The notes: generated by a model not told the origin, from the sequence alone. DNA of 64,000 nucleotides from Eledone cirrhosa (GCA_964016885.1 OZ024762.1:14074001-14138000); one strand, 5' to 3'. Shown: positions 13,545 through 62,523, counted from the first letter of the stretch. Made by a program: numbers and translations.

Positions 13545-13571
13545 AGCAAAATAGAAAGTGTATCATCTTAC

Positions 13572-13725
13572 CTGACTGATGTTTCTTTGTCAATCATCTC
13601 AATCAAATTAAACGGTGAATAATTAAGGAAGCCATCAATGACATAGATAATGCCATTACTACAACCGATAGCAGGGTTGATGAGGTAGAGACGCTGCATA
13701 CCAAAGCCGGCATCGACATAGATAC
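13572..13725 (-). CDS. FAS1-domain gene, internal exon f (154 nt, phase 1 in / 2 out)
   Basis: Acceptor tttgtctttgacag|GTATCT, donor GTCAG|gtaaga. Translation (G)IYVDAGFGMQRLYLINPAIGCSNGIIYVIDGFLNYSPFNLIEMIDKETSV(R) contains the H2 variant CSNGIIYVIDGFL. Confidence 0.9.
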
Positions 13726-16700
13726 CTGTCAAAGACAAACAGAGACACTGCTTAGGCATCGACATAGATACCTGTCAAAGACAAACAGAGACACTGCTTA
13801 GACATCGACATAGATACCTGTCAAAGACAAACACAGACACTGCTTAGACATCGACATAGATACCTGTCAAAGACAAACAGAGACACTGCTTAGACATCGA
13901 CATAGATACCTGTCAAAGACAAACAGAGACACTGCTTAGACATCGACATAGATACCTGTCAAAGACAAACAGAGACACTGCTTAGGCATCGACATAGATA
14001 CCTGTCAAAGACAAACACAGACACTGCTTAGACATCGACATAGATACCTGTCAAAGACAAACACAGACACTGCTTAGACATCGACATAGATACCTGTCAA
14101 AGACAAACAGAGACACTGCTTAGACATCGACATAGATACCTGTCAAAGACAAACAGAGACACTGCTTAGACATCGACATAGATACCTGTCAAAGACAAAC
14201 AGAGACACTGCTTAGGCATCGACATAGATACCTGTCAAAGACAAACACAGACACTGCTTAGACATCGACATAGATACCTGTCAAAGACAAACACAGACAC
14301 TGCTTAGACATCGACATAGATACCTGTCAAAGACAAACACAGACACTGCTTAGACATCGACATAGATACCTGTCAAAGACAAACAGAGACACTGCTTAGG
14401 CATCGACATAGATACCTGTCAAAGACAAACACAGACACTGCTTAGACATCGACATAGATACCTGTCAAAGACAAACAGAGACACTGCTTAGACATCGACA
14501 TAGATACCTGTCAAAGACAAACACAGACACTGCTTAGACATCGACATAGATACCTGTCAAAGACAAACACAGACACTGCTTAGGCATCGACATAGATACC
14601 TGTCAAAGACAAACAGAGACACTGCTTAGGCATCGACATAGATACCTGTCAAAGACAAACAGAGACACTGCTTAGACATCGACATAGATACCTGTCAAAG
14701 ACAAACACAGACACTGCTTAGACATCGACATAGATACCTGTCAAAGACAAACACAGACACTGCTTAGGCATCGACATAGATACCTGTCAAAGACAAACAG
14801 AGACACTGCTTAGGCATCGACATAGATACCTGTCAAAGACAAACACAGACACTGCTTAGACATCGACATAGATACCTGTCAAAGACAAACACAGACACTG
14901 CTTAGACATCGACATAGATACCTGTCAAAGACAAACACAGACACTGCTTAGACATCGACATAGATACCTGTCAAAGACAAACACAGACACTGCTTAGGCA
15001 TCGACATAGATACCTGTCAAAGACAAACAGAGACACTGCTTAGGCATCGACATAGATACCTGTCAAAGACAAACAGAGACACTGCTTAGACATCGACATA
15101 GATACCTGTCAAAGACAAACAGAGACACTGCTTAGACATCGACATAGATACCTGTCAAAGACAAACACAGACACTGCTTAGGCATCGACATAGATACCTG
15201 TCAAAGACAAACACAGACACTGCTTAGGCATCGACATAGATACCTGTCAAAGACAAACACAGACACTGCTTAGGCATCGACATAGATACCTGTCAAAGAC
15301 AAACAGAGACACTGCTTAGGCATCGACATAGATACCTGTCAAAGACAAACACAGACACTGCTTAGACATCGACATAGATACCTGTCAAAGACAAACACAG
15401 ACACTGCTTAGACATCGACATAGATACCTGTCAAAGACAAACACAGACACTGCTTAGGCATCGACATAGATACCTGTCAAAGACAAACACAGACACTGCT
15501 TAGGCATCGACATAGATACCTGTCAAAGACAAACACAGACACTGCTTAGACATCGACATAGATACCTGTCAAAGACAAACAGAGACACTGCTTAGACATC
15601 GACATAGATACCTGTCAAAGACAAACACAGACACTGCTTAGACATCGACATAGATACCTGTCAAAGACAAACACAGACACTGCTTAGGCATCGACATAGA
15701 TACCTGTCAAAGACAAACAGAGACACTGCTTAGGCATCGACATAGATACCTGTCAAAGACAAACACAGACACTGCTTAGACATCGACATAGATACCTGTC
15801 AAAGACAAACACAGACACTGCTTAGACATCGACATAGATACCTGTCAAAGACAAACACAGACACTGCTTAGACATCGACATAGATACCTGTCAAAGACAA
15901 ACACAGACACTGCTTAGGCATCGACATAGATACCTGTCAAAGACAAACAGAGACACTGCTTAGACATCGACATAGATACCTGTCAAAGACAAACACAGAC
16001 ACTGCTTAGACATCGACATAGATACCTGTCAAAGACAAACAGAGACACTGCTTAGACATCGACATAGATACCTGTCAAAGACAAACACAGACACTGCTTA
16101 GACATCGACATAGATACCTGTCAAAGACAAACACAGACACTGCTTAGGCATCGACATAGATACCTGTCAAAGACAAACAGAGACACTGCTTAGACATCGA
16201 CATAGATACCTGTCAAAGACAAACACAGACACTGATTAGACATCGACATAGATACCTGTCAAAGACAAACACAGACACTGCTTAGGCATCGACATAGATA
16301 CCTGTCAAAGACAAACACAGACACTGCTTAGGCATCGACATAGATACCTGTCAAAGACAAACAGAGACACTGCTTAGACATCGACATAGATACCTGTCAA
16401 AGACAAACACAGACACTGCTTAGACATCGACATAGATACCTGTCAAAGACAAACACAGACACTGCTTAGACATCGACATAGATACCTGTCAAAGACAAAC
16501 AGAGACACTGCTTAGGCATCGACATAGATACCTGTCAAAGACAAACACAGACACTGCTTAGACATCGACATAGATACCTGTCAAAGACAAACAGAGACAC
16601 TGCTTAGGCATCGACATAGATACCTGTCAAAGACAAACAGAGACACTGCTTAGGCATCGACATAGATACCTGTCAAAGACAAACACAGACACTGCTTAGA

Positions 16701-19700
16701 CATCGACATAGATACCTGTCAAAGACAAACACAGACACTGCTTAGACATCGACATAGATACCTGTCAAAGACAAACAGAGACACTGCTTCGGCACGACAT
16801 AGATACCTGTCAAAGACAAACAGAGACACTGCTTAGACATCGACATAGATACCTGTCAAAGACAAACACAGACACTGCTTAGACATCGACATAGATACCT
16901 GTCAAAGACAAACAGAGACACTGCTTAGGCATCGACATAGATACCTGTCAAAGACAAACAGAGACACTGCTTAGACATCGACATAGATACCTGTCAAAGA
17001 CAAACACAGACACTGCTTAGGCATCGACATAGATACCTGTCAAAGACAAACAGAGACACTGCTTAGACATCGACATAGATACCTGTCAAAGACAAACAGA
17101 GACACTGCTTAGGCATCGACATAGATACCTGTCAAAGACAAACAGAGACACTGCTTAGACATCGACATAGATACCTGTCAAAGACAAACACAGACACTGC
17201 TTAGACATCGACATAGATACCTGTCAAAGACAAACACAGACACTGCTTAGACATCGACATAGATACCTGTCCAAAAGACATAACAGAGACACTGCTTAGG
17301 ACATCGACATAGATACCTGTCAAAGACAACAGAGACACTGCTAGACATCGACATAGATACCTGTCAAAGACAAACAGAGACACTGCTTAGGCATCGACAT
17401 AGATACCTGTCAAAGACAAAACAGAGACACTGCTTAGGCATCGACATAGATACCTGTCAAAGACAAACAGAGACACTGCTTAGGCATCGACATAGATACC
17501 TGTCAAAGACAAACAGAGACAACTGCTTAGGCATCGACATAGATACCTGTCAAAGACAAACAGAGACACTGCTTAGGACATCGACATAGATACCTGTCAA
17601 AGACAAACAGAGACACTGCTTAGGCATCGACATAGATACCTGTCAAAGACAAACAGAGACACTGCTTAGGCATCGACATAGATACCTGTCAAAGACAAAC
17701 AGAGACACTGCTTAGGACATCGACATAGATACCTGTCAAAGACAAACACGAGACACTGCTTAGACATCGACATAGATACCTGTCAAAGACAAACACAGAC
17801 ACTGCTTAGACATCGACATAGATACTGTCAAAGACAAACAGAGACACTGCTTAGGCATCGACATAGATACTGTCAAAGACAAACAGAGACACTGCTTAGA
17901 CATCGACATAGATACCTCGTCAAAGACAAAACAGAGACATGCTTAGGACATCGACATAATACCTGTCAAAGACAAACAGAGACCACTGCTTAGACATCGA
18001 CATAGATACCTGTCAAAGACAAACAGAGACACTGCTAGGCATCGACATAGATACCTGTCAAAGACAAACAGAGACACTGCTTAGACATCGACATAGATAC
18101 CTGTCAAAGACAAACACAGACACTGCTTAGACATCGACATAGATACCTGTCAAAGACAAACACGAGACACTGCTTAGACATCGACATAGATACCTGTCAA
18201 AGACAAACAGAGACACTGCTTAGGCATCGACATAGATACCTGTCAAAGACAAACAGAGACACTGCTTAGACACGACATAGATACCTGTCAAAGACAAACA
18301 CAGACACTGCTTAGACATCGACATAGATACCTGTCAAAGACAGACACTGCTTAGACATCGACATAGATACCTGTCAAAGACAAACACAGACACTGCTTAG
18401 ACATCGACATAGATACCTGTCAAAGACAAACACAGACACTGCTTAGACATCGACATAGATACCTGTCAAAGACAAACACAGACACTGCTTAGGCATCGAC
18501 ATAGATACCTGTCAAAGACAAACACAGACACTGCTTAGACATCGACATAGATACCTGTCAAAGACAAACACAGACACTGCTTAGACATCGACATAGATAC
18601 CTGTCAAAGACAAACAGAGACACTGCTTAGACATCGACATAGATACCTGTCAAAGACAAACACAGACACTGCTTAGGCATCGACATAGATACCTGTCAAA
18701 GACAAACACAGACACTGCTTAGACATCGACATAGATACCTGTCAAAGACAAACACAGACACTGCTTAGACATCGACATAGATACCTGTCAAAGACAAACA
18801 CAGACACTGCTTAGGACATCGACATAGATACCTGTCAAAGACAAACACAGACACTGCTTAGACATCGACATAGATACCTGTCAAAGACAAACAGAGACAC
18901 TGCTTAGACATCGACATAGATACCTGTCAAAGACAAACAGAGACACTGCTTAGACATCGACATAGATACCTGTCAAAGACAAACACAGACACTGCTTAGG
19001 CATCGACATAGATACCTGTCAAAGACAAACACAGACACTGCTTAGACATCGACATAGATACCTGTCAAAGACAAACACAGACACTGCTTAGGCATCGACA
19101 TAGATACCTGTCAAAGACAAACACAGACACTGCTTAGACATCGACATAGATACCTGTCAAAGACAAACACAGACACTGCTTAGACATCGACATAGATACC
19201 TGTCAAAGACAAACAGAGACACTGCTTAGACATCGACATAGATACCTGTCAAAGACAAACACAGACACTGCTTAGGCATCGACATAGATACCTGTCAAAG
19301 ACAAACACAGACACTGCTTAGACATCGACATAGATACCTGTCAAAGACAAACACAGACACTGCTTAGACATCGACATAGATACCTGTCAAAGACAAACAC
19401 AGACACTGCTTAGACATCGACATAGATACCTGTCAAAGACAAACACAGACACTGCTTAGGACATCGACATAGATACCTGTCAAAGACAAACACAGACACT
19501 GCTTAGACATCGACATAGATACCTGTCAAAGACAAACACAGACACTGCTTAGGCATCGACATAGATACCTGTCAAAGACAAACAGAGACACTGCTTAGAC
19601 ATCGACATAGATACCTGTCAAAGACAAACACAGACACTGCTTAGACATCGACATAGATACCTGTCAAAGACAAACACAGACACTGCTTAGACATCGACAT

Positions 19701-22700
19701 AGATACCTGTCAAAGACAAACACAGACACTGCTTAGACATCGACATAGATACCTGTCAAAGACAAACACAGACACTGCTTAGGCATCGACATAGATACCT
19801 GTCAAAGACAAACACAGACACTGCTTAGACATCGACATAGATACCTGTCAAAGACAAACACAGACACTGCTTAGGCATCGACATAGATACCTGTCAAAGA
19901 CAAACACAGACACTGCTTAGACATCGACATAGATACCTGTCAAAGACAAACACAGACACTGCTTAGACATCGACATAGATACCTGTCAAAGACAAACACA
20001 GACACTGCTTAGACATCGACATAGATACCTGTCAAAGACAAACACAGACACTGCTTAGACATCGACATAGATACCTGTCAAAGACAAACACAGACACTGC
20101 TTAGACATCGACATAGATACCTGTCAAAGACAAACACAGACACTGCTTAGGCATCGACATAGATACCTGTCAAAGACAAACACAGACACTGCTTAGACAT
20201 CGACATAGATACCTGTCAAAGACAAACACAGACACTGCTTAGGCATCGACATAGATACCTGTCAAAGACAAACACAGACACTGCTTAGACATCGACATAG
20301 ATACCTGTCAAAGACAAACACAGACACTGCTTAGGCATCGACATAGATACCTGTCAAAGACAAACACAGACACTGCTTAGACATCGACATAGATACCTGT
20401 CAAAGACAAACACAGACACTGCTTAGACATCGACATAGATACCTGTCAAAGACAAACACAGACACTGCTTAGACATCGACATAGATACCTGTCAAAGACA
20501 AACACAGACACTGCTTAGGCATCGACATAGATACCTGTCAAAGACAAACACAGACACTGCTTAGGCATCGACATAGATACCTGTCAAAGACAAACACAGA
20601 CACTGCTTAGACATCGACATAGATACCTGTCAAAGACAAACACAGACACTGCTTAGGCATCGACATAGATACCTGTCAAAGACAAACACAGACACTGCTT
20701 AGACATCGACATAGATACCTGTCAAAGACAAACAGAGACACTGCTTAGGCATCGACATAGATACCTGTCAAAGACAAACACAGACACTGCTTAGACATCG
20801 ACATAGATACCTGTCAAAGACAAACACAGACACTGCTTAGGCATCGACATAGATACCTGTCAAAGACAAACACAGACACTGCTTAGACATCGACATAGAT
20901 ACCTGTCAAAGACAAACACAGACACTGCTTAGGCATCGACATAGATACCTGTCAAAGACAAACACAGACACTGCTTAGACATCGACATAGATACCTGTCA
21001 AAGACAAACACAGACACTGCTTAGGCATCGACATAGATACCTGTCAAAGACAAACACAGACACTGCTTAGACATCGACATAGATACCTGTCAAAGACAAA
21101 CACAGACACTGCTTAGGCATCGACATAGATACCTGTCAAAGACAAACACAGACACTGCTTAGACATCGACATAGATACCTGTCAAAGACAAACACAGACA
21201 CTGCTTAGACATCGACATAGATACCTGTCAAAGACAAACAGAGACACTGCTTAGGCATCGACATAGATACCTGTCAAAGACAAACAGAGACACTGCTTAG
21301 GCATCGACATAGATACCTGTCAAAGACAAACACAGACACTGCTTAGACATCGACATAGATACCTGTCAAAGACAAACACAGACACTGCTTAGACATCGAC
21401 ATAGATACCTGTCAAAGACAAACACAGACACTGCTTAGACATCGACATAGATACCTGTCAAAGACAAACAGAGACACTGCTTAGGCATCGACATAGATAC
21501 CTGTCAAAGACAAACACAGACACTGCTTAGACATCGACATAGATACCTGTCAAAGACAAACACAGACACTGCTTAGGCATCGACATAGATACCTGTCAAA
21601 GACAAACACAGACACTGCTTAGACATCGACATAGATACCTGTCAAAGACAAACAGAGACACTGCTTAGGCATCGACATAGATACCTGTCAAAGACAAACA
21701 CAGACACTGCTTAGACATCGACATAGATACCTGTCAAAGACAAACACAGACACTGCTTAGACATCGACATAGATACCTGTCAAAGACAAACAGAGACACT
21801 GCTTAGGCATCGACATAGATACCTGTCAAAGACAAACAGAGACACTGCTTAGGCATCGACATAGATACCTGTCAAAGACAAACACAGACACTGCTTAGAC
21901 ATCGACATAGATACCTGTCAAAGACAAACACAGACACTGCTTAGACATCGACATAGATACCTGTCAAAGACAAACAGAGACACTGCTTAGGCATCGACAT
22001 AGATACCTGTCAAAGACAAACAGAGACACTGCTTAGGCATCGACATAGATACCTGTCAAAGACAAACACAGACACTGCTTAGACATCGACATAGATACCT
22101 GTCAAAGACAAACACAGACACTGCTTAGACATCGACATAGATACCTGTCAAAGACAAACAGAGACACTGCTTAGGCATCGACATAGATACCTGTCAAAGA
22201 CAAACACAGACACTGCTTAGGCATCGACATAGATACCTGTCAAAGACAAACACAGACACTGCTTAGACATCGACATAGATACCTGTCAAAGACAAACACA
22301 GACACTGCTTAGACATCGACATAGATACCTGTCAAAGACAAACACAGACACTGCTTAGACATCGACATAGATACCTGTCAAAGACAAACAGAGACACTGC
22401 TTAGGCATCGACATAGATACCTGTCAAAGACAAACACAGACACTGCTTAGACATCGACATAGATACCTGTCAAAGACAAACACAGACACTGCTTAGCTGC
22501 TTAGGCATCGACATAGATACCTGTCAAAGACAAACACAGACACTGCTTAGACATCGACATAGATACCTGTCAAAGACAAACACAGACACTGCTTAGACAT
22601 CGACATAGATACCTGTCAAAGACAAACAGAGACACTGCTTAGGCATCGACATAGATACCTGTCAAAGACAAACAGAGACACTGCTTAGGCATCGACATAG

Positions 22701-25094
22701 ATACCTGTCAAAGACAAACACAGACACTGCTTAGACATCGACATAGATACCTGTCAAAGACAAACACAGACACTGCTTAGACATCGACATAGATACCTGT
22801 CAAAGACAAACACAGACACTGCTTAGACATCGACATAGATACCTGTCAAAGACAAACAGAGACACTGCTTAGGCATCGACATAGATACCTGTCAAAGACA
22901 AACACAGACACTGCTTAGACATCGACATAGATACCTGTCAAAGACAAACAGAGACACTGCTTAGGCATCGACATAGATACCTGTCAAAGACAAACACAGA
23001 CACTGCTTAGACATCGACATAGATACCTGTCAAAGACAAACAGAGACACTGCTTAGGCATCGACATAGATACCTGTCAAAGACAAACACAGACACTGCTT
23101 AGACATCGACATAGATACCTGTCAAAGACAAACACAGACACTGCTTAGACATCGACATAGATACCTGTCAAAGACAAACACAGACACTGCTTAGGCATCG
23201 ACATAGATACCTGTCAAAGACAAACACAGACACTGCTTAGGCATCGACATAGATACCTGTCAAAGACAAACACAGACACTGCTTAGACATCGACATAGAT
23301 ACCTGTCAAAGACAAACACAGACACTGCTTAGACATCGACATAGATACCTGTCAAAGACAAACAGAGACACTGCTTAGACATCGACATAGATACCTGTCA
23401 AAGACAAACACAGACACTGCTTAGACATCGACATAGATACCTGTCAAAGACAAACACAGACACTGCTTAGACATCGACATAGATACCTGTCAAAGACAAA
23501 CAGAGACACTGCTTAGGCATCGACATAGATACCTGTCAAAGACAAACAGAGACACTGCTTAGGCATCGACATAGATACCTGTCAAAGACAAACACAGACA
23601 CTGCTTAGACATCGACATAGATACCTGTCAAAGACAAACACAGACACTGCTTAGACATCGACATAGATACCTGTCAAAGACAAACAGAGACACTGCTTAG
23701 GCATCGACATAGATACCTGTCAAAGACAAACAGAGACACTGCTTAGGCATCGACATAGGTACCTGTCAAAGACAAACACAGACACTGCTTAGACATCGAC
23801 ATAGATACCTGTCAAAGACAAACACAGACACTGCTTAGACATCGACATAGATACCTGTCAAAGACAAACACAGACACTGCTTAGACATCGACATAGATAC
23901 CTGTCAAAGACAAACAGAGACACTGCTTAGGCATCGACATAGATACCTGTCAAAGACAAACACAGACACTGCTTAGACATCGACATAGATACCTGTCAAA
24001 GACAAACACAGACACTGCTTAGGCATCGACATAGATACCTGTCAAAGACAAACACAGACACTGCTTAGACATCGACATAGATACCTGTCAAAGACAAACA
24101 CAGACACTGCTTAGACATCGACATAGATACCTGTCAAAGACAAACAGAGACACTGCTTAGGCATCGACATAGATACCTGTCAAAGACAAACAGAGACACT
24201 GCTTAGGCATCGACATAGATACCTGTCAAAGACAAACACAGACACTGCTTAGACATCGACATAGATACCTGTCAAAGACAAACACAGACACTGCTTAGAC
24301 ATCGACATAGATACCTGTCAAAGACAAACACATACACTGCTTAGACATCGACATAGATACCTGTCAAAGACAAACAGAGACACTGCTTAGGCATCGACAT
24401 AGATACCTGTCAAAGACAAACACAGACACTGCTTAGACATCGACATAGATACCTGTCAAAGACAAACAGAGACACTGCTTAGGCATCGACATAGATACCT
24501 GTCAAAGACAAACACAGACACTGCTTAGACATCGACATAGATACCTGTCAAAGACAAACAGAGACACTGCTTAGGCATCGACATAGATACCTGTCAAAGA
24601 CAAACACAGACACTGCTTAGACATCGACATAGATACCTGTCAAAGACAAACACAGACACTGCTTAGACATCGACATAGATACCTGTCAAAGACAAACACA
24701 GACACTGCTTAGGCATCGACATAGATACCTGTCAAAGACAAACACAGACACTGCTTAGGCATCGACATAGATACCTGTCAAAGACAAACACAGACACTGC
24801 TTAGACATCGACATAGATACCTGTCAAAGACAAACACAGACACTGCTTAGACATCGACATAGATACCTGTCAAAGACAAACAGAGACACTGCTTAGACAT
24901 CGACATAGATACCTGTCAAAGACAAACACAGACACTGCTTAGACATCGACATAGATACCTGTCAAAGACAAACACAGACACTGCTTAGACATCGACATAG
25001 ATACCTGTCAAAGACAAACAGAGACACTGCTTAGACATCGACATAGATACCTGTCAAAGACAAACAGAGACACTGCTTAGGCATCGACATAGAT
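13709..25094 (-). repeat. 46-bp tandem satellite (~247 copies) built from the exon f splice acceptor plus the exon start
   Basis: Period 46 (catcgacata at 13711, 13757, ...). Transcript-strand unit is GTATCTATGTCGATG(T/C)CTAAGCAGTGTCT(C/G)TGTTTGTCTTTGACAG. The last copy runs directly into exon f. Confidence 0.99.
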
Positions 25095-25161
25095 GAGAGA
25101 GATATTATATATGTAATATATATATATAACTGTCGTATATAACATAAATATGCATACACAT

Positions 25162-25350
25162 ATTGTTTCTACGTTTGGCACAAGGCCAGCAAAAACCCAG
25201 TGCATTACTGGTACTTTATTTTATCGACCCCGTAAGGATGAAAGGCAAAGTTATCCTCGGCGGGATTTGAACTCACAATGGCAAGGACCGTAACTCTATA
25301 CATCAAAGCATGGCGTCCGACCCTCTACCGTTACTGCCAATCCACAGCCC
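25162..25350 (-). mobile_element. Full-length tRNA-derived SINE about 70 bp from the distal end of the satellite
   Basis: Same family as 7156-7707. Confidence 0.88.
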
Positions 25351-26359: not shown

Positions 26360-27290
26360 GGTTTCTTATATAGGCACAAGGCCAGCAATTTTTTGGGGGG
26401 TGGGGGGAGGGGAAATTCGATAAAATCGACCCCAGTGCGTGACTAGTACTTTATTTTATCGATCCCGTAAGGATGAAAGGCAAAGTTAACCTCGGCAGGA
26501 TTTGAGCTCAGATCATAAAGGGCCGTAACTCTATGCGTCAAAGCATGGCGTCCCACCCTCTACCGATACTGCCAATCCACCGCCCCTAATAATAATAATA
26601 ATATATGATTAAGGCACGAGACCAACAATTTTTAGGGGTTGTGGGGAGAGTAAAGTCGATTAACTCGATCCCAGTACATTAGTGGTACTTTGTTTTATCG
26701 ACCCTCTTTCATCCTTACGAGTTCGATAAAATAAAGTACCAGTCATGCACTGGGTCGATTTAATTGACTTTACTGCATCCCACCCCCGCAAAAATATAAA
26801 ATTATTGGCCTTGCGTCTATAGTAGAAACAATTATTGGTGAATTGACAGTATCGGTAGAGCGTCAGATACTGTGCTTTGCAGCATAGAGTTATCGCCCTT
26901 TATGGTTTGACTTCAAATCCCGCCGAGGTTAACTTTGCCTTTCATCCCTATGTGGTCGATAAAATAAAGTACCAGTAATACACTGGCTTAATTGCTGGCC
27001 TTGTGCCAAAAGTAGAAACAACTCAAACTTAACCTCGTCTGAGTTCAAATCCAGTCGAGGTTAACTTTCCTTTTCATCCTTACGGGGTCAATAAAATAAA
27101 GTACCAGTAATGCACTGGGGGTTGAGTCAATCGACTTGCCCCTCTCTCCCCCTAAAATTGTTGGCCTTCTGCCTAAATCAGAAACCATTAAGGGCGGTTT
27201 ATTGGCAATTTTCGTAGAGGGTCAGAGAACATGCTTTGCAGTATAGAGTTTGTGGCCTTTAAAGTTTTGAGTTCAAACCCTGCTTCATTT
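26360..27290. mobile_element. Cluster of six full or partial SINE copies in both orientations
   Basis: Minus: ~26360-26587 and ~26610-26705. Plus: ~26706-26835, ~26836-27021, ~27035-27190 and ~27191-27290. Confidence 0.85.
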
Positions 27291-27921
27291 GAACCCCAAA
27301 CCTAAAGGGTCTTACAAAGTAGTGTGTATAACTGTGTATATATATTACCATATTGAGTGTGTTGATACACACAGACAGACACACACGCATACACACACAC
27401 ACTCGCATACATACACATATACACACATACAAATGGACGGTGAGCCATAGATAGATAATTAGAGAGAGAGATAGTCTGAGAGAAGTTGATATGATACTCA
27501 CACAAACACATACATACACACACACACTCGCATACATACACACACACACATATACACACATACACACATACAAATGGACGGTGGGCCAAAGACAGATAGA
27601 TAGATAGATAGATAATTAGGGAGAGAGATAGTCTGAGAGAAGTTGATACTCACACAAACACATATATATATATATATATTTACAGAGAGAGTGTGAGAGA
27701 AGTTGACACACACATACACACACACACACACACACATGTATATTTACAGAGAGAGATAGAGAGATAGACCGAGAGAACACACTCACACACACACACACAT
27801 ATATATACACACACATATATATATATATATATTTACAGAGAGGGAGAGAGAAATAGTCTTGGAGAAGATGACATATATACAGTATATATATATATATATA
27901 TATATATACATGCATACATAC

Positions 27922-29104: not shown

Positions 29105-29234
29105 CACCAATGTTATTGCGGAAGATTTTAAAAGATATATTGAATTGGTTTTTGATGACGCATTTTTTTCTTAATCTCGAACGCAGGTACCTCCAATCTA
29201 GACGAGAGTTCTGCACCACGTGTCCTGCGAATAT
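29105..29234 (-). CDS. FAS1-domain gene, internal exon e (130 nt, phase 0 in / 1 out)
   Basis: Acceptor atttatcag|ATATTC, donor TTGGTG|gtaagt. Translation IFAGHVVQNSRLDWRYLRSRLRKKCVIKNQFNISFKIFRNNIG parallels exon b (GHVV vs AHIA), and phases fit both neighbours. Confidence 0.85.
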
Positions 29235-35256: not shown

Positions 35257-35416
35257 CTTTCTTATTACTTGGAAGTCATTCTTAATGTCCTTCATTTTTT
35301 CTCTACCTATTGTCATTAAGAATCCTTCCGAAGGTGCAAACACGCTGATGTTGGTGCTTTCATCTTTAGCCTGCGAAAGGAATTCCGGATCTAGGGATAG
35401 GATTTCGTAAAATTCT
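35257..35416 (-). CDS. FAS1-domain gene, internal exon d (160 nt, phase 2 in / 0 out)
   Basis: Acceptor ttcttcttgtag|AGAATT, donor AGAAAG|gtaact. Translation (R)EFYEILSLDPEFLSQAKDESTNISVFAPSEGFLMTIGREKMKDIKNDFQVIRK contains the H1 motif SVFAPSEGF. Not in the ORF track. Confidence 0.9.
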
Positions 35417-47966: not shown

Positions 47967-49835
47967 TTAATTAGGTTTATAATATTTAAATGTTTTTTTT
48001 AGTTTATGATTACACGATATAATTAATTCCTGTCTTTTATTTAATAAGATATCCCTAGACTTCATTATTTCAAATAGTTCTTGGGAACATAATCTACATT
48101 CCTTTCTATTATTTTGATAAGGGGTGGCTCTTTTGAGCACACTCCAGGTCAAATCATATTTTATATTTTTATTTTTATAACTATTGATTTTTTCTGCTAG
48201 AGATGTTGTATTAGCCAGTGCGGCATTTTTAAAGCTATGTTTGTGGGTATTATACCTTGTCTTAAAATTGTTAGAGGTAGCTCCTATATATGAGCAAATA
48301 GAATCTTTAGTTTTAACATTACATTTATAGACTATGTTGTTAACAAGACAATTCCCTTTTAATGGGCAGTTTGTTTTGTTTCTACAGTTACATCCTTTCG
48401 TTAATTCTGTATTTGAGGAGATATTATTGTTAATTTGATGTACTGGTGGTATACTTATGGTTTTCTTACATTTATATGCATTATATGCACTTATATTTTG
48501 TTTTATGTTATTTGTTGTAGAGTATGAGAATTTAACTGTAGACCTATTTAAGATTTGATGGTATTTGTGGTTTGGCGGGAAGTTTTTCTCAAGGATATAA
48601 AAAAATTTTTTAGCAATATTATCCTTAACTTGTAAATTAAAAGGAGCATTATACCAAGTAACTCGTCTATTACGGTTTCTATGTTGTTTATTATTTTTAT
48701 TATTTTTATATGTTGTATCATGATTTTTACTAGGAGGATTAATGTTAATGATCTCACCACAACTATTTTTAGTTATATTTGTAGATTTAGGTGTTTTATC
48801 TTTTTTATTAGGAGTTTTATTATTAATATTTATTATAGTTGTATGATGAGTAGTTTTTTGAGGGTTACTATACTTTATATTAGAAGATTTAGTATTTTGG
48901 GGTATACTGTGGGTGGCATTTAGGTGTGTACTTTTCATTTGGTGTTTGTTGGTAATATTATGCTGTATGCTTTCAGTATTTTTAGTAGAAGGTATATACT
49001 CTAATCTATTTTTGTGGCCACTTCTATCTAGAGCTTCATTATAAAAGGTCGCATTTTTATCAAATACATCTTGGTTAGAAGAAAGGTTAGAAATTCTAAG
49101 TGATATATTATATGCAAGGTTTTTAAGGATAGATTTAGGGTGATTAGATTGTGAGTGTATGTAATGTAAGTTTTGGTTAGGTTTATGGTAAGGTTGGTAT
49201 ATACCCGTAGCTAAATCTAAAGTTATATCTAGGAAATTTACTACTTTACTTGTTTTTTCAAAAGTAATATTAAGATTATAATAGTCTTTAAGGAAAGTTC
49301 TAATATGCTTTTTGTTTTTTTCGATTTCTGAAAGGCTAAGGTTGTTAGAAAGAAGAAGACAGTCATCACGATATAAACCACCTTTGAGGTGGGGAAAAGA
49401 GGCATTTATGTTGAAAAGGAGAAAGAGGCCCACAAGATCAGTAATTTGGGCGGAATCGCTTGAACCCATAGTAATATCAAAAAGATTACTGTATGTGTTT
49501 CTGGTCCAGTATTCATTCTGAAATTCAATAAGTGTTTGTCTAGCATGTGTAATAATGTTAATGTCATCCGAAGTTAAATTAGATCTATTTTTAGCAAATA
49601 TTAATGCTTTGTTCAGGAGTATGGGTGATATAGAAGAATAGTAATTATCTATATCAAATTGTAGGAAAGAAGCAGAAGATTTACACCTAATATTTTTAAA
49701 CCAATTAATTACCTGGGAGGTGTTTTCCCAGAGTGGTAAAATAACGTATTTTCTTATTTGTGGGATGACTCTATCTAAAATTTTTTTGCTAATTATTCCA
49801 ATATCTGATTTGGAGGGACATATAAGTCTAATAGA
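47967..49835 (-). CDS. Penelope-like element ORF: reverse transcriptase plus C-terminal GIY-YIG endonuclease, 5'-truncated (Naiad-like)
   Basis: About 620 uninterrupted codons. RT motifs [46 protein letters not shown] and YIHSQSNHP. These are followed by [18 protein letters not shown]...YIGAT...[15 protein letters not shown] and LLNKRQEL...CNH. The N-terminus of the listed 698-aa ORF is only TA microsatellite. Confidence 0.93.
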
Positions 49836-49839
49836 ATAC

Positions 49840-49896
<57 letters not shown>

Positions 49897-49989
49897 CATA
49901 TATATATATACATATATATATATACATATACATATATATATATATACATATATATATATACATATATATATATACATATACATATATAC

Positions 49990-50046
<57 letters not shown>

Positions 50047-50101
50047 CAAACACACACACACACATATATAATGTGTGTGTATCATTATTTAATATAGAAA
50101 T

Positions 50102-50949: not shown

Positions 50950-51094
50950 CTGAGATAGGCCGTGTCAGCCATTGTTTCTGCTACCGATTTATATGGAAAT
51001 GCCAGTACTTGGTCAATGATGTGGAGGACACCATTGGTAGCTGGAATATCGGCCGTGGTTACCCTTGCTTTCACATTATTGCTGATTACGTACA
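50950..51094 (-). CDS. FAS1-domain gene, internal exon c (145 nt, phase 1 in / 2 out)
   Basis: Acceptor ctccttccag|TGTACG, donor CTCAG|gtaaaa. Translation (L)YVISNNVKARVTTADIPATNGVLHIIDQVLAFPYKSVAETMADTAYL(R) contains the classic FAS1 H2 motif ATNGVLHIIDQVL. Confidence 0.95.
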
Positions 51095-55739: not shown

Positions 55740-56103
55740 CTAGAGCGGGTAACATTCCCGAGATCCATGGACGAGTTCTCTCCAGCGGTCTCTGTCCCTC
55801 ATTATCGCTGCCATGCTCTGCGTCTCCAACAGACCAGTGTCTGTCCTTAGGGCATCAACATCCGTTAACCTTGGTTTTCCGCTTCTAGTATGTTCATGTA
55901 GCGGCTCCCACAGGAGCATTGAGTGCAATGTCAACTCTGGATGTCGGTGAGCATGTCCAGCTAACCTCAGTCTCCTCTCTGTCACTTTTGAGCTGACTCT
56001 TGGGAGGCTCCCATACAGCTCTGAGTTTTTCATCCTCGGTGTATACTGATTAATGTTCAGAGCCATCCTCAGCATTCTCGTCTCGCACCCATCCACCATC
56101 TGA
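55740..56103 (-). mobile_element. RTE-clade LINE 3' fragment
   Basis: VDGCETRMLRMALNI...ELYGSLP...RRLRLAGHAHRH...LLWEP...GKPRLT...DTGL...DRDRWR is the RTE post-RT C-terminal signature. Confidence 0.88.
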
Positions 56104-59150: not shown

Positions 59151-59265
59151 AATTGCCGTCTTGTTTAATAATATAGATCTGATCTACGGAAGCCCGTAAT
59201 ACTTCGCCGTAGCGAAACGTATCTTTGTACCTCATTGTTCCATTAGCTATATGGGCTCCCATAAC
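59151..59265 (-). CDS. FAS1-domain gene, internal exon b (115 nt, phase 0 in / 1 out)
   Basis: Acceptor ttttcttgcag|GTTATG, donor GCAATT|gtaagt. Translation VMGAHIANGTMRYKDTFRYGEVLRASVDQIYIIKQDGN has AHI at the FAS1 [Y/F]H position and is in frame with exon a across a 189-nt intron. Confidence 0.88.
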
Positions 59266-59454: not shown

Positions 59455-59608
59455 CTGTTTTATTAAGTCCCCATTCATTAGTCTGTTGGCCTTGCTGTCT
59501 GGGATTTTTAAAAAGGCTTTGTTGCTCGGTACGAACACAGTCAGATGTTCCGACTCCAGACTTAGGAAGTCCTTCATATTGGCACGGTTCATAGCTGACA
59601 GTGCTAAA
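59455..59608 (-). CDS. FAS1 (fasciclin)-domain gene, internal exon a (154 nt, phase 2 in / 0 out)
   Basis: Acceptor tttctaattccag|TTTAGC, donor AAACAG|gtgaga. Translation LALSAMNRANMKDFLSLESEHLTVFVPSNKAFLKIPDSKANRLMNGDLIKQ contains the FAS1 H1 motif TVFVPSNKAF. Confidence 0.92.
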
Positions 59609-62145: not shown

Positions 62146-62322
62146 TGGGAGGCTCCCGTACAGCTCTGAGTTTTCAATACTCAGTGTATACAGATTAATG
62201 TTCAGAGCCATCCTCAGCATTCTCGTGTAGCACCCATCCACCATCTGAATGAGTTTCTTGGTCAGTGTCCAAGTCTCAGACCCGGACAGCAGCACAGACT
62301 CCACGTATGTTGATGCCCTAAG
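62146..62322 (-). mobile_element. RTE-clade LINE fragment, same family as 55740-56103
   Basis: VESVLLSGSETWTLTKKLIQMVDGCYTRMLRMALNI. The DNA overlaps in sequence with 56000-56103. Confidence 0.88.
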
Positions 62323-62523
62323 GACATGGATCTCGGGAATTTTACCCGCCCTAGAAAAATATATTATATGCAATGATTTTCAGATTTCGAGTATATATTT
62401 CCGTGCAGTCGTTTAGCACAATGCTCAATAAAGATAACACTAATAGCAATATAAATCAGTCAAATGTTCTACTGACTAACTGAATTAAAATCAAACCAAG
62501 GCAAATATATTAAACAGATATCG

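What the first reader, a model, noticed from the sequence alone, without database searches (positions are those of the whole stretch)
13572..25094. An 11.4-kb satellite made of a live 3' splice site: ~246 decoy acceptors, each followed by an in-frame stop
Seen: on the transcribed (-) strand each 46-nt unit reads CTAAG (branch-like) - CAGTGTCT(C/G)TGTTTGTCTTTGACAG | GTATCTATGTCGATG(T/C)C. That is the pyrimidine tract, the AG and the first 15-17 nt of FAS1 exon f, and only the last copy continues into the real exon. Splicing exon e to any earlier copy gives G-GT ATC TAT GTC GAT G(T/C)C TAA, i.e. GIYVD(A/V)*, a stop six codons in and before the H2 motif. Inference: the spliceosome must choose 1 of ~247 near-identical acceptors, presumably by exon definition from the strong AG|GTAAGA donor 154 nt downstream. 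Array length could act as a heritable rheostat for NMD-coupled expression, produce a truncated secreted isoform, or act as a sink for U2AF/SF1. I do not know of a described satellite of this scale built from a splice acceptor.
Basis: partly seen in the sequence, partly recalled or inferred. Interest (0 to 1): 0.92.

Follow-up and report, generated by a model that had tools for sequence, protein, structure and literature searches.

The report
Giant splice-acceptor minisatellite in octopod fasciclin
A 46-base piece spanning the end of an intron and the start of an exon in an octopod cell-adhesion gene has been copied head-to-tail about 247 times, giving a very large example of a known repeat type that the cell apparently splices past correctly.

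Summary
In detail: 247 tandem 46-nt units (13711-25094) copy the 3' splice site of a fasciclin-1 exon in an octopod. There are 246 decoys, 237 with a stop at codon 7, and one real acceptor at 13725. The array occurs only here. One public sample holds the unit words at depth ~1,500 and ~900 in assembly-like variant shares, which argues against a few-copy artefact; length is not measured. The gene is alive: exon f is 51/51 identical to four octopod orthologues. One apparently RNA-derived contig (depth 4.1) joins exon e to the last acceptor; no decoy contig appeared. The class is known: amphioxus 'mirages', human F7, and the human ABCA7 donor VNTR (up to 10.7 kb, ~427 units, length-dependent splicing). 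This scan found smaller ones (about 12-37 copies) in annelids and sea urchins. Arrays of 10 kb or more filled 2 of 39 sampled stretches of this genome, so size alone is ordinary. Best reading: neutral minisatellite expansion, tolerated because exon definition picks the only acceptor with a full exon and donor. A rheostat is untested.

The parts
13711..25094 (-). 46-nt minisatellite, 247.3 copies; unit = first 15-17 nt of exon f + last 29-31 nt of the intron; 246 decoy acceptors (25050 to 13771), each also a weak donor-like CAG|GTATCT
13572..13725 (-). Exon f of fasciclin-1 (154 nt); its acceptor is the last array copy; donor CAG|GTAAGA
   Evidence: 51/51 aa identical to O. bimaculoides, O. vulgaris, O. 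sinensis and Argonauta hians proteins; joined to exon e in run X4
29105..29234 (-). Exon e (130 nt), upstream partner; the e-f intron is 15,379 nt, about 11.3 kb of it array
   Evidence: the loose end matches 29106-29135
17316..18370 (-). Stretch of the array (units 146-169) holding 15 of the 22 irregular units; probably low-quality consensus, so the exact array length is uncertain
35257..35416 (-). Upstream fasciclin-1 exon d
50950..51094 (-). Upstream fasciclin-1 exon c
59151..59265 (-). Upstream fasciclin-1 exon b
59455..59608 (-). Upstream fasciclin-1 exon a (first in this window; further exons lie outside)

Best explanation
This is a 'mirage'-type minisatellite. A chance tandem duplication of 46 nt across the intron/exon-f boundary was amplified by ordinary minisatellite turnover (unequal exchange, unit mixing, block duplication) to about 250 copies, in a genome where multi-kb minisatellites are everywhere. 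It has no selected function. It is tolerated because the spliceosome defines exon f across the exon: only the last acceptor is followed by the full exon body and a good donor 154 nt away. The decoys keep only 15-17 exon bases, and the donor-like site 46 nt after each lacks +4A/+5G. Rare decoy products carry a stop at codon 7, several exons before the end, and would go to nonsense-mediated decay. Shown: anatomy, single locus, high copy number in reads, live gene, productive junction, genomic background. Inferred: neutrality, exon definition as the mechanism, NMD.
For: (1) Complex minisatellites cover 11.1% of 39 position-picked 10-kb stretches, and 2 of 39 are filled end to end by one array. 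They cover 5.7% of 574 kb of genic DNA, with 5 arrays of 1.7 kb or more. (2) Turnover signature: all four combinations of the two variable sites occur, and a 27-unit run repeats at lag 33 (200 shuffles: mean 8.9, max 14). (3) Productive splicing: a 165-nt contig in run X4 (depth 4.1) covers 13671-13726 and continues into the end of exon e. It reaches about 55 nt into exon f, well past the 17 shared nt, and X4 has no contig on the unit. (4) Exon f is 51/51 identical to four octopod orthologues and the three downstream exons are open. (5) The real and decoy sites cannot be told apart upstream of +18 or by predicted accessibility. (6) All 8 donors I read in this gene have A at +4; the unit's donor-like site has T. 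(7) Precedent: mirages reportedly do not disturb splicing (PMC3087553 and PMC3902484, passages); only the authentic F7 donor is used (PMC1557585); an exon-centric proximity rule holds for exons between long introns (PMC9225289, passages).
Against: The RNA evidence is one contig at depth 4.1 in a run whose kind is not on record. Logan contigs drop rare forms and NMD would hide decoy products, so decoy use is not excluded. In PMC9225289 the upstream-acceptor preference is described as 'significantly reduced' for long-intron exons, not as reversed, so the rule alone does not guarantee exclusive use of the last acceptor. The decoys are transcribed up to 11 kb before the real exon. In human ABCA7 a boundary VNTR of this size does lower expression and raise exon skipping (PMC5954066). 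0 of 112 sampled exon hits had a large boundary-spanning array, so this configuration is uncommon even here.
Confidence: 0.74

Rival explanations
1. Length-dependent rheostat, ABCA7-like. The array is polymorphic, and longer alleles divert a measurable share of transcripts to decoy acceptors (then NMD) or cause exon-f skipping (154 nt, a frameshift), tuning fasciclin-1 dose between individuals or tissues.
For: ABCA7: a 25-bp VNTR starting at the exon-18 donor, 298-10,678 bp long. Use of the next unit's donor was 2+/-1%; expression was 33% lower and exon-19 skipping 3.2-fold higher between the extreme genotypes (PMC5954066, Results). Here 246 decoys are transcribed first and 237 give an early stop. 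Variant shares in X1/X3 differ a little from the assembly (commonest variant 0.43 against 0.49), which a second allele could explain.
Against: No decoy or array contig in X4, although all units collapse onto four variants and array-retaining RNA would be over-represented (weak, since a hole proves nothing). In ABCA7, use of the repeated donor itself did not vary with length. Polymorphism was not measured here.
Confidence: 0.13
2. Recursive or AG|GT rescue. Each unit is both acceptor and donor, so splicing exon e to a decoy regenerates a donor at the same boundary. Re-splicing downstream removes whole units without a trace, and the 15-kb intron leaves in steps with a normal mRNA as the end product.
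For: 242 of 247 sites read CAG|GTATCT, which matches 9 of 11 positions of the U1-complementary consensus (consensus recalled). A duplicated AGGT can form a working intron, with 6-16% spliced in minigenes (PMC3265369, Results). The X4 junction is equally compatible with this route.
Against: The two mismatches are at +4 and +5. The donor regenerated after joining to exon e matches only 7 of 11. The same junction exists in the normal mRNA of four orthologues that keep exon f. No intermediates were seen; none could be with these data.
Confidence: 0.07
3. Assembly inflation: the true array is much shorter (a few to tens of copies) and 11.4 kb is an artefact.
For: 15 of 22 irregular units cluster in about 1 kb mid-array. 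The gene's 5' exons lie on another scaffold, and two lie in the opposite orientation on this contig. No spanning read was seen.
Against: In X1 and X3 (one sample) the four unit variants sum to word depths of about 1,535 and 881, while adjacent unique exon f gave no contig; the variant shares resemble the assembly. Five copies or fewer would need about 300x single-copy depth in X1. The two copies of the duplicated block differ by private changes. Caveats: single-copy depth is unknown (at 6x X1 implies 256 copies, at 30x 51), the tool says depth is no copy number, and the sample may be the source of the assembly.
Confidence: 0.06

Closest known systems
Amphioxus 'mirages' (Adh3, globins BflGb6/BflGb9, troponin C, PGBD5; PMC3087553, PMC3902484; Canestro et al. 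2002 seen only as cited)
   Same: Minisatellite whose unit spans an intron-exon boundary, including the acceptor side (BflGb6); units keep splice signals; concerted evolution; splicing reported as normal.
   Different: BflGb6 has 3-6 units at 81-100% identity; here there are 247 units at 97% over 11.4 kb, in a mollusc. Length and somatic instability were not testable here.
Human ABCA7 intron-18 VNTR (PMC5954066)
   Same: Same scale (up to 10,678 bp, ~427 units); begins at a splice site; a splice site in the next unit is used at low level and gives a frameshift.
   Different: Donor side; only the GT of the donor is stated to lie in the first unit; length effects were measured there and are unknown here.
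Human F7 IVS7 37-bp VNTR (PMC1557585)
   Same: Identical pseudo-sites in tandem; only the site nearest the exon body is used although the others are functional.
   Different: Donor side with 5-9 sites, where the authentic site is transcribed first. Here the authentic acceptor is transcribed last, after 246 competitors.
Intron creation by duplication of AGGT (PMC3265369) and recursive splice sites (mentioned in PMC13196383; motif recalled)
   Same: Each unit carries AG|GT, so unit-to-unit excision would be traceless.
   Different: The AG|GT here is an existing exon boundary, the donor half lacks +4A/+5G, and no use is shown.

Membership tests
Mirage minisatellite | Tandem unit spans an intron-exon boundary of a host gene | tested here: met
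Mirage minisatellite | Units keep splice signals | tested here: met
   242 of 247 sites read CAG|GTATCT
Mirage minisatellite | Concerted evolution and turnover among units | tested here: met
   97% matches; four-way variant mixing and a 27-unit block repeat against a shuffle maximum of 14
Mirage minisatellite | Regular splicing to the authentic site persists | tested here: inconclusive
   Productive junction present in one contig at depth 4.1; decoy share cannot be measured
Mirage minisatellite | Allelic or somatic length instability | not testable with these tools
   One assembly; the RAD-seq run X5 had 0 reads on the stretch
ABCA7-type splicing-modulating VNTR | Length correlates with expression or isoform ratio | not testable with these tools
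   No genotype-expression series available (7 runs listed, none on record as RNA)
Recursive splice site | Acceptor directly followed by GT | tested here: met
Recursive splice site | Regenerated donor is strong (consensus recalled) | tested here: not met
   7 of 11 after joining to exon e, mismatches at +4/+5; no MaxEnt score available
Dispersed satellite family | Same unit at several loci | tested here: not met
   237 exact matches genome-wide = 237 in the window
Fasciclin (FAS1) host gene | PF02469 domains and orthology to cephalopod fasciclin-1 | tested here: met

The most novel reading that the evidence does not exclude
The array is a functional, length-polymorphic splicing element. 246 dual AG|GT sites catch the exon-e donor co-transcriptionally and either ratchet it forward by serial re-splicing or leak it to NMD, so that array length sets the dose of a seven-domain fasciclin adhesion protein. 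This would be the acceptor-side, invertebrate counterpart of ABCA7 and, as far as my searches reach, the first recursive-splicing ladder built from a minisatellite.
Probability: 0.1. Interest if true: 0.75.

Novelty: new member of a known kind. Interest (0 to 1): 0.33.

Why it matters
As a class it is known, and this scan has met it repeatedly. Its value is as an extreme natural test. 246 near-identical acceptors, 14 of them identical to the real one over 63 nt, are transcribed up to 11 kb before the only acceptor that owns an exon. That sets exon definition against first-come-first-served 3' splice-site choice more sharply than F7 does, because there the authentic site comes first. It extends mirages to cephalopods and is the largest acceptor-side case my eight literature searches turned up. 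It would matter more if allele length proved to change fasciclin-1 output.

Tried and rejected
RNA structure masking the decoys. The last units plus exon f fold with z = -3.75 against dinucleotide shuffles, but that control destroys periodicity. Against tandem arrays of shuffled units, 48 of 200 fold as well or better, and the pyrimidine tract is equally unpaired at the real site (0.32) and at 9 decoys (0.28-0.38). Rejected.

Dead gene copy: rejected.

Retrocopy as the source of the X4 junction: the genome search gave 8 exon-sized matches and no continuous copy, so it is disfavoured.

Degenerate copies of the unit elsewhere: only 9 scattered 18-mer near-matches in 1.03 Mb of held sequence.

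A truncated protein ending in the decoy peptide: the exon-e search returned 2 proteins, both full through exon f, and the 8 cluster members printed show none. This is weak, as this species' RNA is barely represented.

No listed run is on record as RNA; that blank is no evidence. The DNA search of the own genome with exon f was not scored. No relatives' genomes are held, so the orthologous intron could not be read.

Strict test for duplicated splice sites at 112 exon hits: 4 hits. The two I inspected are intronic repeats; the two on L054 were not inspected.

Canestro 2002 and Zhuo 2007 are not held. No supplements were read; the mirage alignments in those of PMC3087553 and the ABCA7 unit sequences may bear on the comparison.

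Full report
OBSERVATION. TRF finds one array at 13711-25094 with period 46, 247.3 copies and 97% matches. On the minus strand there are 247 acceptor-like sites. The last, at 13725, opens a 154-nt exon ending CAG|GTAAGA. The unit is the first 15-17 nt of that exon plus the last 29-31 nt of the intron. Two variable sites give four variants (121/54/40/31 of 246). 22 units are irregular, 15 of them in units 146-169, mostly by 1-nt indels that probably reflect weak consensus (inference). In the exon-e frame 237 of 246 decoys stop at codon 7. A 29-nt core has 237 exact matches in the 3.0-Gb genome and 237 in the window, so this is a single-locus array.

HOST GENE. Exon f translates 100% identical to Octopus bimaculoides fasciclin-1, and 51/51 to the O. 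vulgaris, O. sinensis and Argonauta hians proteins. The last exon is only about 80% identical to the Octopus proteins, so the animal is an octopod, probably of another genus (inference). Six exons lie in the window. Three open downstream exons follow. The upstream exons are on scaffold C1179, and two lie inverted at C23:13.86 Mb, so the assembly is fragmented around this gene. A full-length cephalopod homologue has 7 PF02469 stretches. Two unnamed cephalopod ORFs (P0008, P0009) read 38-43 codons in frame from the intron into this exon with no stop or repeated peptide. That is indirect evidence that those relatives have no such array.

IS THE ARRAY REAL, AND IS THE LAST SITE USED? Seven runs were listed, none on record as RNA; four were laid on 13545-13775. 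In X1 and X3 (one sample) the four unit variants have summed word depths of about 1,535 and 881, with shares close to the assembly (T 0.65/0.63 against 0.62; G 0.60/0.57 against 0.65). Unique exon f gave no contig in either run. This supports many copies but does not measure them: X1 implies 256 copies at 6x single-copy depth and 51 at 30x, and the sample may be the assembly's source. X4, another sample of the same study, has one 165-nt contig at depth 4.1 that covers 13671-13726 and continues for 108 nt. The printed 30 nt match the end of exon e exactly. That is the productive junction, about 55 nt into exon f. X4 has no contig on the unit. X5 (RAD-seq) had no reads here. One low-depth contig shows presence only; the decoy share is unmeasured.

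IS THE SIZE SPECIAL? In 39 stretches of 10 kb picked at round coordinates (not random draws; 9 are on this contig), complex minisatellites (period 15 or more, 3 or more copies, 85% or more match) cover 11.1%. Two stretches are filled end to end by a single array of 27 or 35 nt (95% interval for 2/39 is 0.6-17%). In 574 kb around exons they cover 5.7%, with five arrays of 1.7 to at least 4.7 kb. Among 112 exon hits (72 myosin, 27 HSP70-family, 13 other exons of this gene) none had a large boundary-spanning array. One had a small degenerate donor-side one (L031) and one a marginal case (L042). So giant minisatellites are routine here and overlap with a splice site is uncommon but not unique, as expected if seeds are picked by chance (inference).

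MECHANISM. The array shows ordinary turnover: all four combinations of the two variable sites, and a 27-unit run repeated at lag 33 (200 shuffles: mean 8.9, max 14). 14 of 246 decoys equal the real site from -46 to +17, and none at +18. Predicted accessibility does not differ between real and decoy sites. Selection of the last site must therefore come from downstream sequence or from later correction. The flanking introns are 15.4 and about 31 kb, which is exon-definition territory. PMC9225289 (passages) reports that sites closest across the exon are favoured in that setting, though for acceptors it describes the upstream preference as reduced rather than reversed. The nearest decoys would give exons of 200, 246 and 292 nt and are the likeliest leaks (inference). 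This weak donor probably keeps units from being defined as 46-nt micro-exons, and it leaves a recursive route open. A duplicated AGGT can be spliced at 6-16% in minigenes (PMC3265369, abstract and Results). The 'branch-like' CTAAG straddles the junction between exon-derived and intron-derived parts, and its use is untested.

WHAT IS KNOWN. [quoted passage not shown] In human F7 only the authentic donor of 5-9 identical ones is used (PMC1557585, abstract and Discussion). The human ABCA7 VNTR starts at a donor, reaches 10,678 bp (~427 units), shows 2+/-1% use of the next unit's donor, and its length tracks lower expression and more exon skipping (PMC5954066, abstract and Results part 1 of 2). 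Both the scale and the rheostat idea therefore have donor-side precedent. Eight searches of the open library and passages of a 2026 review (PMC13196383) gave no acceptor-side array of this size and none in cephalopods; subscription journals are mostly not covered. Earlier notes of this scan describe acceptor mirages of about 12-37 copies in annelids and sea urchins (unchecked), none in this genome. I had reached the mirage reading, before seeing them.

VERDICT. This is a real, very large, single-locus mirage in a live fasciclin-1 gene. It is most likely neutral in origin and tolerated through exon definition plus NMD (0.74). A length-dependent rheostat (0.13), recursive removal (0.07) and inflated length (0.06) remain open. 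New member of a known kind; interest 0.33.

Noticed in passing
window 25094-25110 (-): The far end of the array begins inside the exon-derived part (+3 of exon f), not in the intron-derived part as a simple tandem duplication predicts. A deletion probably trimmed that end, or microhomology seeded the first duplication.
   Followed up: partly
window 47967-50081 (-): 704-codon open frame in the c-d intron whose later part looks like a reverse transcriptase followed by a GIY-YIG-like domain (Penelope-like element; motifs recalled). No Pfam hit at E<=0.001.
   Followed up: partly
window 62162-62350 and 55966-56099 (-): Two related short frames resembling LINE reverse-transcriptase fragments (label recalled).
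   Followed up: no
window 25150-25340, 26400-27300: Several copies of a dispersed SINE-like repeat in the e-f intron upstream of the array, on both strands.
   Followed up: no
L031 4684-4760 (G000:C3, myosin exon): Small, old donor-side mirage: a 24-nt unit across the exon end, 3-4 degenerate copies.
   Followed up: partly
L042 4421-4523: 51-nt duplication that starts about 5 nt inside a myosin exon end and copies its donor; a marginal mirage.
   Followed up: partly
G000:C1179 and G000:C23:13860425-13869827: The 5' exons of this gene lie on a separate 149-kb scaffold, and two lie on the opposite strand about 270 kb beyond exon a; probably a scaffolding error.
   Followed up: partly
L059 and L097: Two unrelated arrays (27 and 35 nt) fill whole 10-kb stretches.
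   Followed up: no
window unit 56 near 22520: One unit carries an 8-nt internal duplication of the branch-like part.
   Followed up: no
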